This document shows positions 57,446-63,747 of a stretch of 64,000 nucleotides of DNA, piece after piece. The stretch lies in assembly GCF_009914755.1 (NCBI RefSeq), contig NC_060939.1. One strand, written 5' to 3'. The stretch's first letter is position 1, and the number at the start of each line of letters is the position of its first letter. The position numbers were made by a program, and so were the translations under genes. The stretch is from the human T2T-CHM13v2.0 reference genome, Homo sapiens. Below the pieces are notes generated by a model that did no database searches, was not told the origin of the DNA, and saw only the letters and a program-made list of their open reading frames with translations.

Positions 57446-57609
57446 GCTCTGAAGAGCGGCCATTCCTCAGATTCGAAGCTGAACACATCTCCAACTACAC
57501 AGCCCTTCTGCTGAGCAGGGATGGCAGGACCCTGTACGTGGGTGCTCGAGAGGCCCTCTTTGCACTCAGTAGCAACCTCAGCTTCCTGCCAGGCGGGGAG
57601 TACCAGGAG
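57446..57609 (+). CDS. SEMA4B: SEMA4B coding exon 2 (GSEERPFLRFEAEHISNYTALLLSRDGRTLYVGAREALFAL...EYQE), start of Sema domain
   Basis: Pyrimidine tract + CAG acceptor, donor GAG|GTGAGA; 164 nt restores frame; LYVGARE semaphorin motif. Confidence 0.97.
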
Positions 57610-57773
57610 GTGAGAGATGTTGCCTGGAGCTGGCTAGGCTGGGCAGAGGACCACAGAGGGAAGATGGACGGGAAGCTTGACCTTCTGGGTCCAAGGATGA
57701 TGCCTATGGGAGAGGAGGGAGGCTCAGCAAACCCTCCATTTTGTCCACTACCTTCCCCTTTCTCACTCCCCAG

Positions 57774-57836
57774 CTGCTTTGGGGTGCAGACGCAGAGAAG
57801 AAACAGCAGTGCAGCTTCAAGGGCAAGGACCCACAG
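57774..57836 (+). CDS. SEMA4B: SEMA4B coding exon 3 (LLWGADAEKKQQCSFKGKDPQ)
   Basis: AG/GT boundaries, 63 nt, phase 0; C-x-x-KGK Sema motif. Confidence 0.96.
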
Positions 57837-58424
57837 GTGAGCCCACACCTGGAAGGGAGCTGAGCTGCAGGAGGGATGGAGGGTGGTGGACTTCCATCCA
57901 GGCCAGAGGCAGGAGGTGGGAGCAGATACAGCCAGGTATGGTGGGAAGGGCATAAGCTTCTGAGATTACCCGGCCTGGGTTTGAATCCCAGCACTACACT
58001 TACATCGCTACGACCTTCGACAAGTAGATTCACCTGTCTAAGCCTTAGTGGGCCCACCTGTAAAATGGGGATAATGATCCGGTCTCACTGGGCTTACAGT
58101 GAGGATTCAGGAAGCTAATAGGTGTAAGGCACCTGGCTCATAGATACAAGACCTAACAAGTCAGCTTCCAGCGTGAACAGAGATTGGGTGGGGTGAGAGT
58201 TGTGTCCCTCTGCAGATGGTTCCTGATGTAGCACATCTGACAGATTCTGGTGTGGTTTTGGCCAAAGCACAGGATGAAATCTGGTTCAACCCAGGTTCTC
58301 CTGGAGGACTCATCATCATCCCTAGAGGCCTCCTGCTCCTGCTCCTAAGTGCAGCAGGTGCTGGGTAAGGTGAGGGCAAAAGAGTGCTGGACTTGGGATC
58401 AAGACACAGGTTCAAGTCCTGGCT

Positions 58425-59410
58425 GCCATTCTGTTATTCAGCTAACATTGATGAAGCATGCACTCTGTGTCCATGTACTTTTAGGTACTGGAGATTTAAT
58501 TGTGAAAAAGCAGGCTTGGCACAGTGGCTCACGCCTGTAATCCCAGCACTTCGGGAGGCTGAGGCAGGTGGATCACAAGGTCTCCACCTCATGGTCTCCT
58601 GAGTGTCTCAGGAGTTCGAGACCAGCCAGGCCAACATAGTGAAACTCCGTCTCTACTAAAAATACAAAAAACATTAGCCAGGCATGGTGGCAGGCGCCTG
58701 TAGCCCCAGCTACCTGGGAGGCTGAAGCAGGAGAATCGCTTGAACCTGGGAGGCAGAGGTTGCAGTGAGCCGAGATCTCGCCACTGCACTCCAGCCTGGA
58801 TGACAGAATGAGACTGTGTTTCAAAAGAAAAAGTAGTCAGTTTACAAATGTTATTGGCGGGGCGTGGGATGGAATGAGGTGGTCAGGTAACATTTCATTA
58901 AAAAAGTGACATTTGAGCCAAGATCAGGAGAGAGTGAGGAGCTGACAGTGGCATATCTGGAGGAGGGGCAGGACTTTTGATTTCACTCTGAGGGAGGTAT
59001 TTGGGAGGCCAGGGGAAGGCTGAGCAGAGATGTGACATGGTCTCACCTGTGTACTAAGAGGGTCACTCTGGCTACTGTGGTAGAGAAGCCTCCATGGGGA
59101 AGGACAGGAGGAGGGAGAGCAGTGAGGGGCGAGTGATGATGGTGGCTCGGACCAGTGAGAAATGCTCAGATTCCGGATGCATTTTGAAGATGGAGCCACC
59201 AGGATTTCTGGGTGGGAAATTATGGGGTATGACCGACAAGAAGAGTCAAGGCTGACTGGGTTTGGGGCCTCAGCGACTGAAAAGACAGAATTAATGAAAG
59301 TGGCAAGATCTCGGGGGGAAGCATGTGTTTTAGGGAGGACCAGAAAGAAGCTTGGTTGCAGGTGCCAGTTAGATACCCCATTTGAAGGTGATGCATGAAT
59401 CTGGGGTTCA
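58425..59410 (-). mobile_element. L2 fragments interrupted by an Alu (SEMA4B intron)
   Basis: GTGACATTTGAGC, GGTCACTCTGGCTACTGTG, ATGCATTTTGAAGATGGAGCC, AAGAGTCAAGGCTGAC L2-like motifs. Confidence 0.55.
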
Positions 59411-59800
59411 GGGTTCAGGGCTGAGCAGTCCTCCTGCTCTGGGCTGTGGCTTCATCAGCTCCCAGCTTGGTTGGGAGGGGCCTGTGGCTTCTGAAGAGGA
59501 TGCTGCTGGGGAATAGTACAACTCAAAGGGGTAGGATTCTGTGCCCTCACCCCTAGGCCGAAGGAAAGTTTGCCAGTCACAAAACTAGCTGAGCCCCTGG
59601 GCTCCCTGCAGCACACACACTCTGTGCACGCTCCACTGTGCCCCAGAAAACCCGTGGGTTCTTTGTTCCTAGACTTGAGTGCCCCATCCCCAGTCCTGGG
59701 AGCAGAGGCCGGGCCTGGGTGTGGAAGGGGGGGGCTCGGCGGTGCCCCCTGGTGGCATGCTTGGGCGTGGGACTGATATCCCCTCGCTCCTTCCCCCCAG

Positions 59801-59899
59801 CGCGACTGTCAAAACTACATCAAGATCCTCCTGCCGCTCAGCGGCAGTCACCTGTTCACCTGTGGCACAGCAGCCTTCAGCCCCATGTGTACCTACATC
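59801..59899 (+). CDS. SEMA4B: SEMA4B coding exon 4 (RDCQNYIKILLPLSGSHLFTCGTAAFSPMCTYI)
   Basis: CCCCAG acceptor, GTGAGT donor, 99 nt; CxNYI and CGT-AF-P-C Sema motifs. Confidence 0.97.
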
Positions 59900-61101: not shown

Positions 61102-61374
61102 GTGAGTGTTGAGGGCAGGATGGGTTCATTGAAGGTCCATGTAGGGGCACACAGGGCTAGAGGGCTAGCTTTGGACAGGCTGAGTCCATGCCATGCTTAT
61201 TTCCAAGGGGACAGAATGGCCAGGGGCTTGCCTTGGGTTTGGTTTTTCCAAGTTCCAGCTTCCTTCTCTGCCCACCACAGGCAAAACGGGCAGTGCTGGG
61301 GTCACTCTGGGCCCTGAGCAGGGAGAAGGGGCCGTGCTGAGGAGCCCATTCCCATGGGAATGTTTTCTTGGCAG

Positions 61375-61488
61375 ATGGCGAGCTCTACACTGGAACAGTC
61401 AGCAGCTTCCAAGGGAATGACCCGGCCATCTCGCGGAGCCAAAGCCTTCGCCCCACCAAGACCGAGAGCTCCCTCAACTGGCTGCAAG
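61375..61488 (+). CDS. SEMA4B: SEMA4B coding exon 6 (DGELYTGTVSSFQGNDPAISRSQSLRPTKTESSLNWLQ)
   Basis: GGCAG acceptor, AAG|GTGAAG donor, 114 nt; DGELYTGT motif. Confidence 0.96.
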
Positions 61489-61621
61489 GTGAAGTCCTCT
61501 TGCCACCACCCAGAGGGCAGGGATCCTGTTCACCCAGCCCTAGAAGGGGGCACTTTCCCCCAGCTTGGCCTGTCTCCAGGGTTCCTGGGCTGACTCTGAG
61601 CTCCTGACCTGGTCCCTACAG

Positions 61622-61773
61622 ACCCAGCTTTTGTGGCCTCAGCCTACATTCCTGAGAGCCTGGGCAGCTTGCAAGGCGATGATGACAAGATCTACTTTTT
61701 CTTCAGCGAGACTGGCCAGGAATTTGAGTTCTTTGAGAACACCATTGTGTCCCGCATTGCCCGCATCTGCAAG
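61622..61773 (+). CDS. SEMA4B: SEMA4B coding exon 7 ([51 protein letters not shown])
   Basis: TACAG acceptor, AAG|GTGAGG donor, 152 nt; DDKIYFFF.E and SRIARICK motifs. Confidence 0.97.
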
Positions 61774-63565
61774 GTGAGGGGAACGGGCTGACAGGGTGGC
61801 CACCCCAGGGACCTCAAAGCCTCCACAGCTGCAAGATCACCCACATCCATGCATGGCCTTTCCCATCCCCCAAGGAGTGCAGCTTGGCTAACAGCTTTTC
61901 TCTCTCACCTTTTAAATTAAAATATCTTACTACTTTTTTCTTTTTTTTTTTCTTTTTATTTTTAGACAGGATCTTTGCTCTGTCACCCAGGCTGGAGTGC
62001 AGTGGCACGATCACGGTTCACTGCAGCCTCGACCTCCTGGGCTCAAGCAGTTCTCCTACCTCAGCCTCCCGAGTAGCTGAGACTACAGGTGTGCGCCCCC
62101 ATGCCCAGCTAATTTTTGTATTTTTTGTAGAGATGGGGTTTTACCACGTTGCCTGGGCTGGTCTCAAACTCCTGGGCTCAAACAATCCACCCACCTCGGC
62201 TTCCCAAAGTGCTGGGATTACAGGCATGAGCCACTGCACCCAGCCTTTTTTTTTCTTTTTTTTTTTTTTTTACTTAAAAAATGTGAAAATAGCCGGGCAT
62301 GGTGGCTCACGCCTGTAATCCCAGCACTTTGGGAGGCCAAGGTGGGTGGATCACCTGAGGTCAGGAGTTTGAGACCAACCTGGCCAACATGGTAAAACCC
62401 CATCTCTACTAATAATACAAAAGTTAGCTGGGCGTGGTGGTGCACGCCTGTAATCCTAGCTACTCAGGAGGCTGTGGCAAGAGAATCGCTTGAACCTGGG
62501 AGGTGGAGGTTGCAGTGAGCCGAGATGGTGCCACTGCACTCCAGCCTGGGTGACAGAGCAAGACTGTCTCAAAAAAAAAAATGTGAAAATAGAAAACTGT
62601 ACACACAAAAATCACTTACAAGTTAAAGAGGCACTGTAGCATCAGCTGGAGAGCACAGACCCTGGAGGCCAACTGCCCAAGTTCAAACCCTGCTGGCCTA
62701 GGATCTTGGGCAAGTCCCTCACCCCCTCGGTTAACAGTTTCCTCTTCTGTTAAATAGGAAGAATAACACTGACCTCAGAGTTGTTATGTGAATTATTAAT
62801 CCACGCAAAGCTCTTAGAAATGTGGTGGGCAGTGACTAAATGTGAACTATGAATGTTATTACCCCACCACCCCAGCACAAGGAGTCACTGGTATCATTTT
62901 AGAATGCCCCCTCCAAATCTTTTTTTTTTTTTTTGGCATATGTGTAACTCTGTGTATATATATATATATATATATACATTTTTTTTTTCCTTTTTGAGAC
63001 AGGGTCTCACTTTGTCATCCAGGCTGGTGTGCAGCGGTGAGATTTCACTGCAACCTCCGCTGCCCAATCTCAAGCAATCCTCTCACCTCAGCCCCTCATG
63101 TAGCTGGGACTACCAGCATGCACCACCATGCCCAGCTAATTTTTTTGTATTTTTAGCAGAGACAGGGTCTCAAACTCCTGAGCTCAAGTGATCCACCCGC
63201 CTTGGCCTCCCAAAGTGCTGGAATTATAGGCATTAATAATATAAGTACCATCCCGACCTTGTACTTATATTATTAACTCACTCAGGAACATGGCATTAGG
63301 CTATATTGGGGTCCTTTGGCTTCCTTGTTTGCTCAGCAGTGAATCGCGTCCATATTTAGGAAGGCTCTGCTTAGTCACAGTAAGGACCATCCTCCTGATG
63401 GATGCGTACACTGCTCTTCCTGACTTTAGATGGAACTTGGTCCTGGCCTTCTCCTGCCCTTCAGTCCTGGTGTCTGGGGTGGGTCCATTGAGGCAGTCCT
63501 GTGCCGTGCATCCCCGTCATGGCTCAGCGTGTGCCTAAGCCCAGCCCATCCGACTCTCCCTCCAG

Positions 63566-63747
63566 GGCGATGAGGGTGGAGAGCGGGTGCTACAGCAGCG
63601 CTGGACCTCCTTCCTCAAGGCCCAGCTGCTGTGCTCACGGCCCGACGATGGCTTCCCCTTCAACGTGCTGCAGGATGTCTTCACGCTGAGCCCCAGCCCC
63701 CAGGACTGGCGTGACACCCTTTTCTATGGGGTCTTCACTTCCCAGTG
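63566..63747 (+). CDS. SEMA4B: SEMA4B coding exon 8 (GDEGGERVLQQRWTSFLKAQLLCSRPDDGFPFNVLQDVF...FYGVFTSQW)
   Basis: TCCAG acceptor, TG|GTAGGG donor, 182 nt; GD.GG...WTSFLKA.L.CS motif. Confidence 0.97.

What the first reader, a model, noticed from the sequence alone, without database searches (positions are those of the whole stretch)
57521..63689. Hidden 250-codon overlapping ORF (+1 frame) spliced across seven SEMA4B exons
Seen: after joining the exons, an ATG in strong context (GGGATGG, 57521) opens a +1 frame with no stop through exons 2-7 and into exon 8 (TGA 63687-63689). That is 89+63+99+112+114+152+124 = 753 nt, or 250 aa: [101 protein letters not shown]. The genomic ORF track shows it only as disconnected pieces. 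A +1 stop needs NTG-A or NTA-R in the main frame; about 22 NTG codons (hand count) pass without a following A, roughly 0.75^22 under a naive model. Inference: a dual-coding region with a Ser/Arg/Pro/Cys-rich, probably disordered product lacking a signal peptide. Such runs do arise by chance somewhere in a genome.
Basis: partly seen in the sequence, partly recalled or inferred. Interest (0 to 1): 0.8.

Follow-up and report, generated by a model that had tools for sequence, protein, structure and literature searches.

The report
SEMA4B +1 ORF equals published SEMA4B-211aa
The long out-of-frame reading frame inside the human SEMA4B gene is really there, but it is the same frame already published as the circular-RNA protein "SEMA4B-211aa", and its length alone is no more than chance would give somewhere among GC-rich genes.

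Summary
Observation confirmed. Joining the annotated exons gives a +1-frame ORF of 250 codons, from ATG 57521 (G at -3, G at +4) to TGA 63687-63689.

It is already in print in another guise. Wang et al. 2022 (PMC9482637) describe circSEMA4B: exons 2-7, 704 nt, with a 636-nt ORF called "SEMA4B-211aa". Circularising exons 2-7 of the window reproduces 704 nt, 636 nt and 211 aa from the same ATG. Their 17-residue antibody peptide sits at residues 46-62 of the +1 frame and is absent from the SEMA4B frame. The two ORFs share their first 210 residues.

The length is not beyond chance genome-wide. Synonymous shuffles give P = 0.02 for an open run of at least 252 codons and 0.007 for an ATG ORF of at least 250. 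There are 6 +1 stops against 7.3-7.5 expected, and an antisense frame is open for 242 codons.

On linear mRNA the ATG is the fourth AUG. Conservation could not be tested, because no orthologue DNA is held. Evidence for the endogenous protein rests on one paper without mass spectrometry.

Best reading: a chance-born ORF, already described, with endogenous translation unproven. Interest is low to moderate.

The parts
57521..57609 (+). Start of the +1 ORF: ATG 57521-57523 in context GCAGGGATGG, then the exon 2 part (89 nt). It is the first ATG of exon 2 in any frame.
57774..57836 (+). +1 ORF, exon 3 part (63 nt). The published antibody epitope begins at 57820.
59801..59899 (+). +1 ORF, exon 4 part (99 nt). 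The epitope ends at 59834.
60990..61101 (+). +1 ORF, exon 5 part (112 nt).
61375..61488 (+). +1 ORF, exon 6 part (114 nt).
61622..61773 (+). +1 ORF, exon 7 part (152 nt). The donor at 61773 is the back-splice donor of the published exon 2-7 circle.
63566..63689 (+). +1 ORF, exon 8 part (124 nt), ending in TGA 63687-63689. These last 40 residues exist only in the linear-mRNA version.
57446..57452 (+). Seven bases read after the back-splice junction in the circle: the last base of codon 210, codon 211 (Leu), and TGA 57450-57452. The same TGA ends the 39-codon +2 ORF that starts at 41648 on linear mRNA.
57512..57514 (+). The +1-frame stop three codons upstream of the ATG. It bounds the 252-codon open run.
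41604..41650 (+). The three AUGs that precede 57521 on NM_198925 mRNA. 41604 is the annotated start, in weak context. 41619 is in frame, in strong context. 41648 is in frame +2, in adequate context, and opens a 39-codon ORF.
61940..62596 (.). Two interspersed repeats of about 300 nt in intron 7, in opposite orientations. They pair as inverted complements with copies in intron 1, for example 56633-56865, 55534-55804, 47992-48299 and 44805-45090. This is the arrangement that favours back-splicing.
   Evidence: 45 blastn hits, 26 on the minus strand; masked in the hub table at 61906-62595
54943..54970 (+). A 28-nt cassette exon of another transcript, flanked by AG and GT. If it lies between exon 1 and exon 2 it would shift the SEMA4B frame, and 57521 would be the next ATG after the cassette's own one-codon ATG-TAA.
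   Evidence: the joining of exons in that transcript is assumed, not shown in the hub table

Best explanation
The +1 ORF is real. It is the same AUG and frame as the published 'SEMA4B-211aa' ORF of circSEMA4B (hsa_circ_0000650, exons 2-7).

On the circle, the frame crosses the back-splice junction and stops 7 nt into exon 2, giving 211 aa. On linear mRNA it runs on into exon 8, giving 250 aa. The first 210 residues are identical.

The frame most likely stands open as a by-product of two things: GC-rich codon usage (GC3 0.76) and the particular amino-acid sequence of the Sema-domain exons. At the six Leu/Val codons followed by an A-starting codon, the gene uses CTC or GTC. Selection for a second protein is not needed to explain this.

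If the frame is translated, initiation is at AUG 57521. On the circle this would be cap-independent, as claimed in print. On linear mRNA it would need leaky scanning past a weak, a strong and an adequate AUG. Alternatively it would need reinitiation after the 39-codon +2 ORF that stops 68 nt upstream.

The product would be a very basic (pI about 11.6-12), Ser/Ala/Arg/Thr/Pro-rich cytosolic polypeptide with no known domain.

Shown: the ORF, its identity with the published ORF, and the chance statistics. Inferred: its chance origin and a low level of endogenous translation.
For: Identity with the published ORF:
- Exons 2-7 of the window sum to 704 nt. The circular ORF from 57521 is 211 aa plus a stop, or 636 nt, with a computed mass of 22.6 kDa. 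The paper gives 704 bp, a 636-nt ORF, 211 aa and about 23 kDa.
- The paper's antigen peptide lies at residues 46-62 of the +1 frame. It is absent from the SEMA4B frame and from frame +2.
- None of its 6-mers occurs in any forward frame of the rest of the gene.

Chance origin:
- P(open run at or above the observed length) = 0.020-0.022 under two kinds of synonymous shuffle: >=253, >=252.
- P(ATG ORF >=250) = 0.007.
- There are 6 +1 stops against 7.3-7.5 expected.
- An antisense frame of the same spliced CDS is open for 242 codons.

No sign of a protein family: 0 of 7 exon-wise pieces match Pfam at E<=1.

Access on linear mRNA is poor: 57521 is the fourth AUG and lies downstream of a strong in-frame AUG at 41619.

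The published evidence is limited:
- The main text has 0 occurrences of 'mass spectrometry', 'LC-MS' or 'conserv'.
- It says the antibody also sees 92-kDa SEMA4B 'since [they] shared the same specific segment'. The sequence contradicts this.
- Ho-Xuan et al. 2020 (abstract read) showed for circZNF609 that apparent circRNA translation from overexpression plasmids came from linear by-products.
Against: P of about 0.01-0.02 is low for a single gene.

The ATG sits only three codons after the upstream stop and in strong context.

All 6 of 6 Leu/Val codons followed by an A-starting codon inside the stretch end in C. Outside it, 5 of 7 end in G. That contrast is post hoc, because the stretch was chosen for having no stop.

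The primary paper (passages read) reports:
- a band at the predicted size in untransfected 293T, MDA-MB-231 and MCF-7 cells, using an antibody raised against a +1-frame peptide;
- a FLAG-tagged product of about 26 kDa from the Flag-circSEMA4B and linear Flag-211aa constructs;
- IRES activity in a bicistronic reporter;
- co-immunoprecipitation with p85;
- growth phenotypes.
If these hold, the frame is translated and active, whatever its origin.

Conservation was not tested here, so selection is not excluded.
Confidence: 0.6

Rival explanations
1. The protein is a functional circRNA product, as published. circSEMA4B is translated from an internal ribosome entry site starting at AUG 57521. The 211-aa product binds free p85, lowers p110 and damps PI3K/AKT signalling. 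The linear-mRNA extension of the frame into exon 8 is irrelevant.
For: PMC9482637 (passages read) reports a Sanger-verified back-splice junction and cytoplasmic circles resistant to RNase R. It also reports bicistronic IRES activity and a FLAG product from the circle construct. The antibody band lies at about the predicted 23 kDa, which fits 22.6 kDa for 211 aa better than 26.6 kDa for 250 aa. It further reports co-IP with p85.

The window supports the anatomy: a 704-nt circle, an ORF that crosses the junction and inverted repeats in the flanking introns. On the circle, 57521 opens the longest of the 9 ATG ORFs.
Against: This is a single primary study. 102 papers mention it, and the 30 listed are mostly reviews and citing papers.

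The main text mentions no mass spectrometry.

Only one residue, the C-terminal Leu, is specific to the circle. Neither the antibody nor a tryptic peptide can therefore tell the circle's product from the linear one.

The paper's own statement that the epitope is shared with 92-kDa SEMA4B is wrong by frame. This calls the antibody's specificity into question.

The start-codon mutant circle still suppressed growth.

Overexpression artefacts are documented for another circle.

No statistical sign of selection on the frame was found.
Confidence: 0.22
2. The linear SEMA4B mRNA is truly dual-coding. A fraction of scanning ribosomes reaches AUG 57521 and makes a 250-aa protein that is kept by selection, as in POLG/POLGARF or FUS/altFUS.
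For: The ORF is 753 nt, above the 500-nt threshold that Chung et al. 2007 used for conserved alternative frames.

The annotated start, 41604, is in weak context. The AUG at 57521 is in strong context. The +2 ORF from 41648 ends 68 nt upstream of 57521, a layout that could allow reinitiation.

P is 0.007-0.02 under synonymous shuffles.
Against: A strong in-frame AUG (41619) and a further AUG (41648) lie upstream. A 39-codon upstream ORF is long for efficient reinitiation (recalled knowledge).

There is no overall depletion of +1 stops, and a comparable open run exists in an antisense frame.

SEMA4B occurs 0 times in the main text of Chung et al. 2007, which screened 14,159 human-mouse pairs for conserved frames of at least 500 bp. 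It also occurs 0 times in Ribrioux et al. 2008. Their supplements could not be opened.

No paper in the library pairs SEMA4B with 'alternative open reading frame', 'altORF' or 'dual coding'.

The reported endogenous band is at about 23 kDa, not 26.6 kDa.
Confidence: 0.08

Closest known systems
SEMA4B-211aa, the reported product of circSEMA4B / hsa_circ_0000650 (Wang et al. 2022, Cell Death Dis 13:794, PMC9482637; passages read)
   Same: It has the same AUG (57521), the same +1 frame and the same first 210 residues. The published epitope lies at residues 46-62.
   Different: The published ORF closes 7 nt after the back-splice junction, giving 211 aa and 22.6 kDa. The paper treats the epitope as shared with SEMA4B. 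A review calls the product a truncated form of SEMA4B (PMC10487980, passage read). The sequence shows it is wholly out of frame.
POLGARF in POLG mRNA (bioRxiv 10.1101/2020.03.06.980391; start of abstract seen in search listing)
   Same: It is a long ORF (260 codons there, 250 here) that overlaps the main coding sequence of a human gene in another frame.
   Different: POLGARF is described as conserved. It starts at a highly efficient CUG in the 5' leader, upstream of the main start. Here the AUG lies 232 nt downstream of the main start, behind three AUGs, and conservation is untested.
altFUS in FUS (Brunet et al., EMBO Rep, PMC7788448; start of abstract seen in search listing)
   Same: An alternative ORF nested inside an annotated coding sequence in a shifted frame.
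   Different: The abstract describes altFUS (170 aa) as conserved and endogenously expressed in human tissues. Neither is shown for the linear SEMA4B frame.
GNAS XL-alpha-s / ALEX and the 'ARFome' candidates (Chung et al. 2007, PMC1868773, passages read; Ribrioux et al. 2008, PMC2329644, abstract in listing)
   Same: A +1 or +2 frame of at least 500 nt overlapping a canonical mammalian coding sequence.
   Different: Those candidates were defined by conservation of the open frame in human and mouse plus a column-replacement test. SEMA4B does not occur in the main text of either paper.
circZNF609 'translation' (Ho-Xuan et al. 2020, PMC7544230; abstract read)
   Same: A junction-spanning ORF on an exonic circle, supported mainly by tagged overexpression constructs.
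   Different: For circZNF609 the products were traced to linear trans-splicing by-products, and no endogenous protein was found. No such control is in print for circSEMA4B, as far as the passages read show.

Membership tests
Conserved mammalian dual-coding gene (criteria of Chung et al. 2007) | An alternative frame (+1 or +2) open for at least 500 nt inside the canonical coding sequence | tested here: met
   753 nt including the stop, frame +1
Conserved mammalian dual-coding gene (criteria of Chung et al. 2007) | The open frame is conserved in human and mouse (overlap of at least 500 nt) and in at least one of rat or dog | not testable with these tools
   No vertebrate orthologue DNA is held; the own genome has no relatives here. 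Indirect evidence: SEMA4B occurs 0 times in the paper's main text.
Conserved mammalian dual-coding gene (criteria of Chung et al. 2007) | The frame is longer than composition allows (column-replacement test at 5% or below) | tested here: inconclusive
   Single-species stand-ins give P = 0.020-0.022 for the open run and 0.007 for the ATG ORF. That passes at 5% for one gene. With one or two frames in each of roughly 20,000 genes (recalled number) it is expected many times over. A next-base-conditioned shuffle gives 0.22.
circRNA-encoded protein with a junction-spanning ORF | An exonic circle with a defined back-splice junction | tested here: met
   Exons 2-7 sum to 704 nt, as published. The paper reports a Sanger-verified junction. 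Inverted repeats lie in introns 1 and 7. The junction itself cannot be seen in genomic DNA.
circRNA-encoded protein with a junction-spanning ORF | An ORF that starts in the circle, crosses the junction and ends at a stop | tested here: met
   211 codons from 57521, with the stop TGA 57450-57452 lying 7 nt past the junction
circRNA-encoded protein with a junction-spanning ORF | Endogenous peptide evidence specific to the junction | not testable with these tools
   The paper's main text has 0 occurrences of 'mass spectrometry' or 'LC-MS'. Only the C-terminal Leu, which follows an Arg, is circle-specific, so trypsin cannot yield a diagnostic peptide.
circRNA-encoded protein with a junction-spanning ORF | A cap-independent initiation element | not testable with these tools
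   Claimed from a bicistronic luciferase assay. Not assessable from sequence here.
Translated alternative ORF ('altProt') on linear mRNA | Ribosome-profiling or proteomic evidence for the shifted frame on the linear transcript | not testable with these tools
   No paper pairs SEMA4B with 'altORF', 'dual coding' or 'alternative open reading frame'. The one hit with OpenProt is a citation of the circRNA paper. The 8 papers with SEMA4B + Ribo-seq + ORF were judged from the listing alone; seven concern circRNA- or ncRNA-encoded peptides and one mouse mRNA decay. Supplementary tables were not searchable.
Any known protein domain family (Pfam-A) | A match of the +1-frame product to a curated family | tested here: not met
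   0 of 7 exon-wise pieces (20-50 aa) match at E<=1. Short pieces give low power, and the spliced protein could not be submitted whole.

The most novel reading that the evidence does not exclude
SEMA4B may be a true dual-coding linear mRNA. Some ribosomes would pass the weak annotated AUG (41604), or reinitiate after the 39-codon +2 ORF that stops 68 nt upstream. They would then start at AUG 57521 and make a 250-residue, very basic cytosolic protein. On this reading, the signals published as 'circRNA-encoded SEMA4B-211aa' (the antibody band, p85 binding) come wholly or partly from the linear transcript. The antibody epitope and 210 of 211 residues are common to both products.
Probability: 0.1. 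Interest if true: 0.55.

Novelty: already known. Interest (0 to 1): 0.3.

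Why it matters
As a discovery it adds little. The frame, its AUG and 210 of its 250 residues are in print as SEMA4B-211aa and are widely cited: 102 papers mention it.

What the window adds is a correction. The published product is not a piece of SEMA4B. It is an entirely out-of-frame polypeptide. The same ORF stands open on the ordinary mRNA, 40 residues longer.

Three consequences follow:
- The published antibody cannot tell a circle-derived product from an mRNA-derived one.
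- The reported 92-kDa 'SEMA4B' band cannot be explained by a shared epitope.
- A tryptic digest cannot give a circle-specific peptide.

If the frame proved to be conserved and translated, SEMA4B would join the short list of human genes with a long overlapping second protein. One synonymous change (GAT to GAC at the start) would then give a clean genetic test.

Tried and rejected
I could not check the 149, 66 or 40 conserved alternative frames beyond the main text.
- One literature query had a term that was too long. It was re-sent in shorter form.
- Pfam on the seven exon-wise +1 pieces: no match. The spliced 250-aa protein was not sent to any fold, structure or homology tool, because those take contiguous window DNA only. 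So there is no structure or disorder prediction beyond composition.
- A next-base-conditioned shuffle (null B) gave P = 0.22. I treat it as over-conditioned. Its groups are tiny and it retains the very codon choices under test. It did not hold the number of stops fixed either (mean 5.08).
- The contrast of 0 of 6 G-ending Leu/Val codons before A inside the stretch against 5 of 7 outside was rejected as independent evidence. The stretch was selected for having no stop.
- Considered and not run: orthologue proteins for obligatory +1 stops (Met followed by Ile, Met, Thr, Asn or Lys). Only two Met lie in the stretch, so the power did not justify a 13-CPU-hour search.
- Considered and not run: SEMA4 paralogues in the held genome as matched controls. 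They would add only about five more samples of the same null.
- I checked the idea that the epitope might recur in the C-terminal part of SEMA4B outside the window. No 6-mer of it occurs in any forward frame of window-equivalent 64001-69800. 6-mers that span splice junctions there were not covered.

Full report
**1. The observation**

I joined the nine coding parts given in the hub's gene table, reading them from the window file. All 8 acceptors checked are AG and all 9 donors are GT. The main frame reads through all 398 codons held in the window.

ATG 57521 lies in frame +1 in the context GCAGGGATGG, with G at -3 and G at +4. The frame runs 250 codons and ends at TGA 63687-63689.

The stop-to-stop open run is 252 codons, and the upstream +1 stop is at 57512-57514.

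**2. Is it more than chance?**

The SEMA4B protein sequence fixes most of what the +1 frame can read. Only 12 sites in the stretch can produce a +1 stop under synonymous change.

| Null model | P(longest open run at or above the observed length) | P(ATG ORF >=250) |
|---|---|---|
| Plain synonymous shuffle, 20000 replicates per run | 0.020 (>=253), 0.022 (>=252) | 0.007 |
| Synonymous swaps keeping total CpG and TpA, 4000 samples | 0.021 | 0.0075 |
| Independent codons from this gene's usage, 398 codons | 0.003 | not computed |
| Independent codons from this gene's usage, 838 codons | 0.007 | not computed |
| Shuffle conditioned on the next base | 0.22 | not computed |

The next-base-conditioned shuffle retains most of the observed codon choices, and I regard it as over-conditioned.

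The total number of +1 stops in the 398 codons is 6, against 7.3-7.5 expected. There is therefore no general avoidance of +1 stops. The stops simply lie outside the stretch.

One antisense frame of the same spliced sequence is open for 242 codons. This shows what GC3 = 0.76 does on its own.

A chance of 1 in 50 to 1 in 150 per gene of this make-up is notable for one gene. Across a genome of about 20,000 coding genes (recalled number) it is expected tens of times or more.

**3. What it is**

A library search for SEMA4B with OpenProt led, through a reference list, to Wang et al. 2022, Cell Death Dis 13:794 (PMC9482637). I read passages of it.

The paper describes circSEMA4B (hsa_circ_0000650). 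The circle is made from exons 2-7 and is 704 bp long. It carries a 636-nt ORF for a 211-aa protein of about 23 kDa. An antibody was raised against a 17-residue peptide.

I closed exons 2-7 of the window into a circle. The results match the paper:
- The circle is 704 nt.
- The ORF from ATG 57521 crosses the back-splice junction and stops at TGA 57450-57452, 7 nt into exon 2.
- It is 211 aa plus a stop, 636 nt, with a computed mass of 22.6 kDa.
- The published peptide lies at residues 46-62, encoded by 57820-57836 plus 59801-59834.

That peptide is absent from the SEMA4B frame and from frame +2. None of its 6-mers occurs in any forward frame of the rest of the gene, which I fetched from the held genome.

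The first 210 residues of the circular and linear ORFs are identical. The circle adds one Leu, and the linear mRNA adds 40 residues to give 250 aa and 26.6 kDa.

**4. Where the literature and the sequence disagree**

[quoted passage not shown] The window shows that the product shares no reading frame with SEMA4B.

The paper's main text contains no mention of mass spectrometry, LC-MS or conservation. 'Reading frame' appears once, in the introduction.

Only the C-terminal Leu, which follows an Arg, is circle-specific. So neither the antibody nor a tryptic peptide can separate a circle-derived product from an mRNA-derived one.

Of 102 papers that mention circSEMA4B or SEMA4B-211aa, the 30 listed are mostly reviews and citing papers. 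I saw no second primary study of its translation in that listing.

Ho-Xuan et al. 2020 (abstract read) showed for circZNF609 that products of circRNA overexpression plasmids came from linear by-products.

**5. How the AUG could be reached**

On NM_198925 mRNA, three AUGs precede 57521:
- 41604 is the annotated start, in weak context.
- 41619 is in frame, in strong context.
- 41648 is in frame +2, in adequate context.

The 41648 ORF is 39 codons long. It ends at the same TGA 57450-57452, 68 nt before AUG 57521. Leaky scanning past a strong AUG should pass few ribosomes. Reinitiation after 39 codons is usually inefficient (recalled knowledge). Access on linear mRNA is possible but probably small (inference).

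57521 is the first ATG of exon 2 in any frame. The hub table lists a 28-nt cassette exon (54943-54970) belonging to another transcript. If it lay between exons 1 and 2, it would shift the SEMA4B frame into an early stop. AUG 57521 would then be the next usable start. How that exon is joined is not given in the table, so this is conjecture.

On the circle, 57521 opens the longest of the 9 ATG ORFs. That is presumably why a longest-ORF database picked it.

Intron 7 holds two repeats of about 300 nt in opposite orientation (61940-62250 and 62292-62596). They match many copies in intron 1. Of 45 blastn hits, 26 are inverted, and the nearest inverted copy is at 56633-56865. Such inverted pairs are known to favour back-splicing (recalled knowledge). 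That they are Alu elements is my guess from their length and copy number, not a tool result.

**6. The product**

The 250-aa product has these features:
- It contains 45 Ser, 34 Ala, 27 Arg, 25 Pro, 24 Thr, 14 Cys and no Asp.
- Its net charge is +30 and its pI is 11.6.
- Its highest 19-residue hydropathy mean is 0.58, so it has no signal peptide or membrane span.
- It lies on the charge-hydropathy boundary, 0.461 against 0.456.

None of the 7 exon-wise pieces matches Pfam at E<=1. This composition is what a +1 reading of a GC-rich coding sequence gives, and it is no evidence either way.

**7. Comparison with known cases**

The closest thing is the published SEMA4B-211aa itself.

Among linear dual-coding genes, the search listing describes POLGARF as 260 codons, conserved, with an efficient CUG start upstream of the main start. 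It describes altFUS as 170 aa, conserved and endogenously expressed.

The ARFome screen of 14,159 human-mouse pairs required a frame open for at least 500 bp in both species. SEMA4B does not occur in its main text or in that of Ribrioux et al. 2008. Their supplements could not be opened.

No paper in the library pairs SEMA4B with 'alternative open reading frame', 'altORF' or 'dual coding'.

**8. Verdict**

The best reading is a chance-born open frame that is already described in print under another name. Its endogenous translation rests on one study with a flawed epitope argument, and its conservation is untested.

The most novel reading still open is that the linear mRNA, not only the circle, makes the protein. 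I give that about 10%.

The decisive tests are a mammalian alignment of the +1 frame and initiation-site ribosome profiling. A third is a synonymous GAT-to-GAC edit, which removes the AUG without touching SEMA4B.

Noticed in passing
window, spliced SEMA4B coding sequence, reverse complement (41604-63995, minus strand): One antisense frame of the spliced coding sequence is open for 242 codons, with only 3 stops in 398 codons. It is nearly as long as the +1 ORF and serves as a built-in control for what this composition gives.
   Followed up: partly
window 41604-41621: The annotated SEMA4B start (41604) is in weak context, with C at -3 and C at +4. A second in-frame ATG five codons downstream (41619) is in strong context. 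The true main start may be mixed.
   Followed up: no
window 41648-41760 plus 57446-57452: A 39-codon +2-frame ORF starts at ATG 41648 inside the signal-peptide region. It ends at TGA 57450-57452, the same stop that closes the circular-RNA ORF, 68 nt before ATG 57521.
   Followed up: partly
window 54943-54970: A 28-nt cassette exon of another transcript is flanked by AG and GT and contains ATG-TAA. Its length is not a multiple of three, so inclusion between exons 1 and 2 would shift the SEMA4B frame into an early stop in exon 2.
   Followed up: partly
window 61940-62596 (intron 7), with 44800-56865 (intron 1): Intron 7 carries two repeats of about 300 nt in opposite orientation. Many copies lie in intron 1 in both orientations (45 blastn hits, 26 inverted). 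This fits back-splicing of exons 2-7. The repeat family was not identified by any tool.
   Followed up: partly
PMC9482637, Results section on SEMA4B-211aa; window 57820-59834: The paper explains a 92-kDa band by an epitope shared with SEMA4B, and a review calls the product a truncated SEMA4B. The epitope is encoded only in the +1 frame, so both statements conflict with the sequence.
   Followed up: yes
window 41604-41760 (exon 1): The signal-peptide region encodes an uninterrupted run of 14 leucines within a Pro/Leu-rich stretch, a repeat-like coding tract.
   Followed up: no
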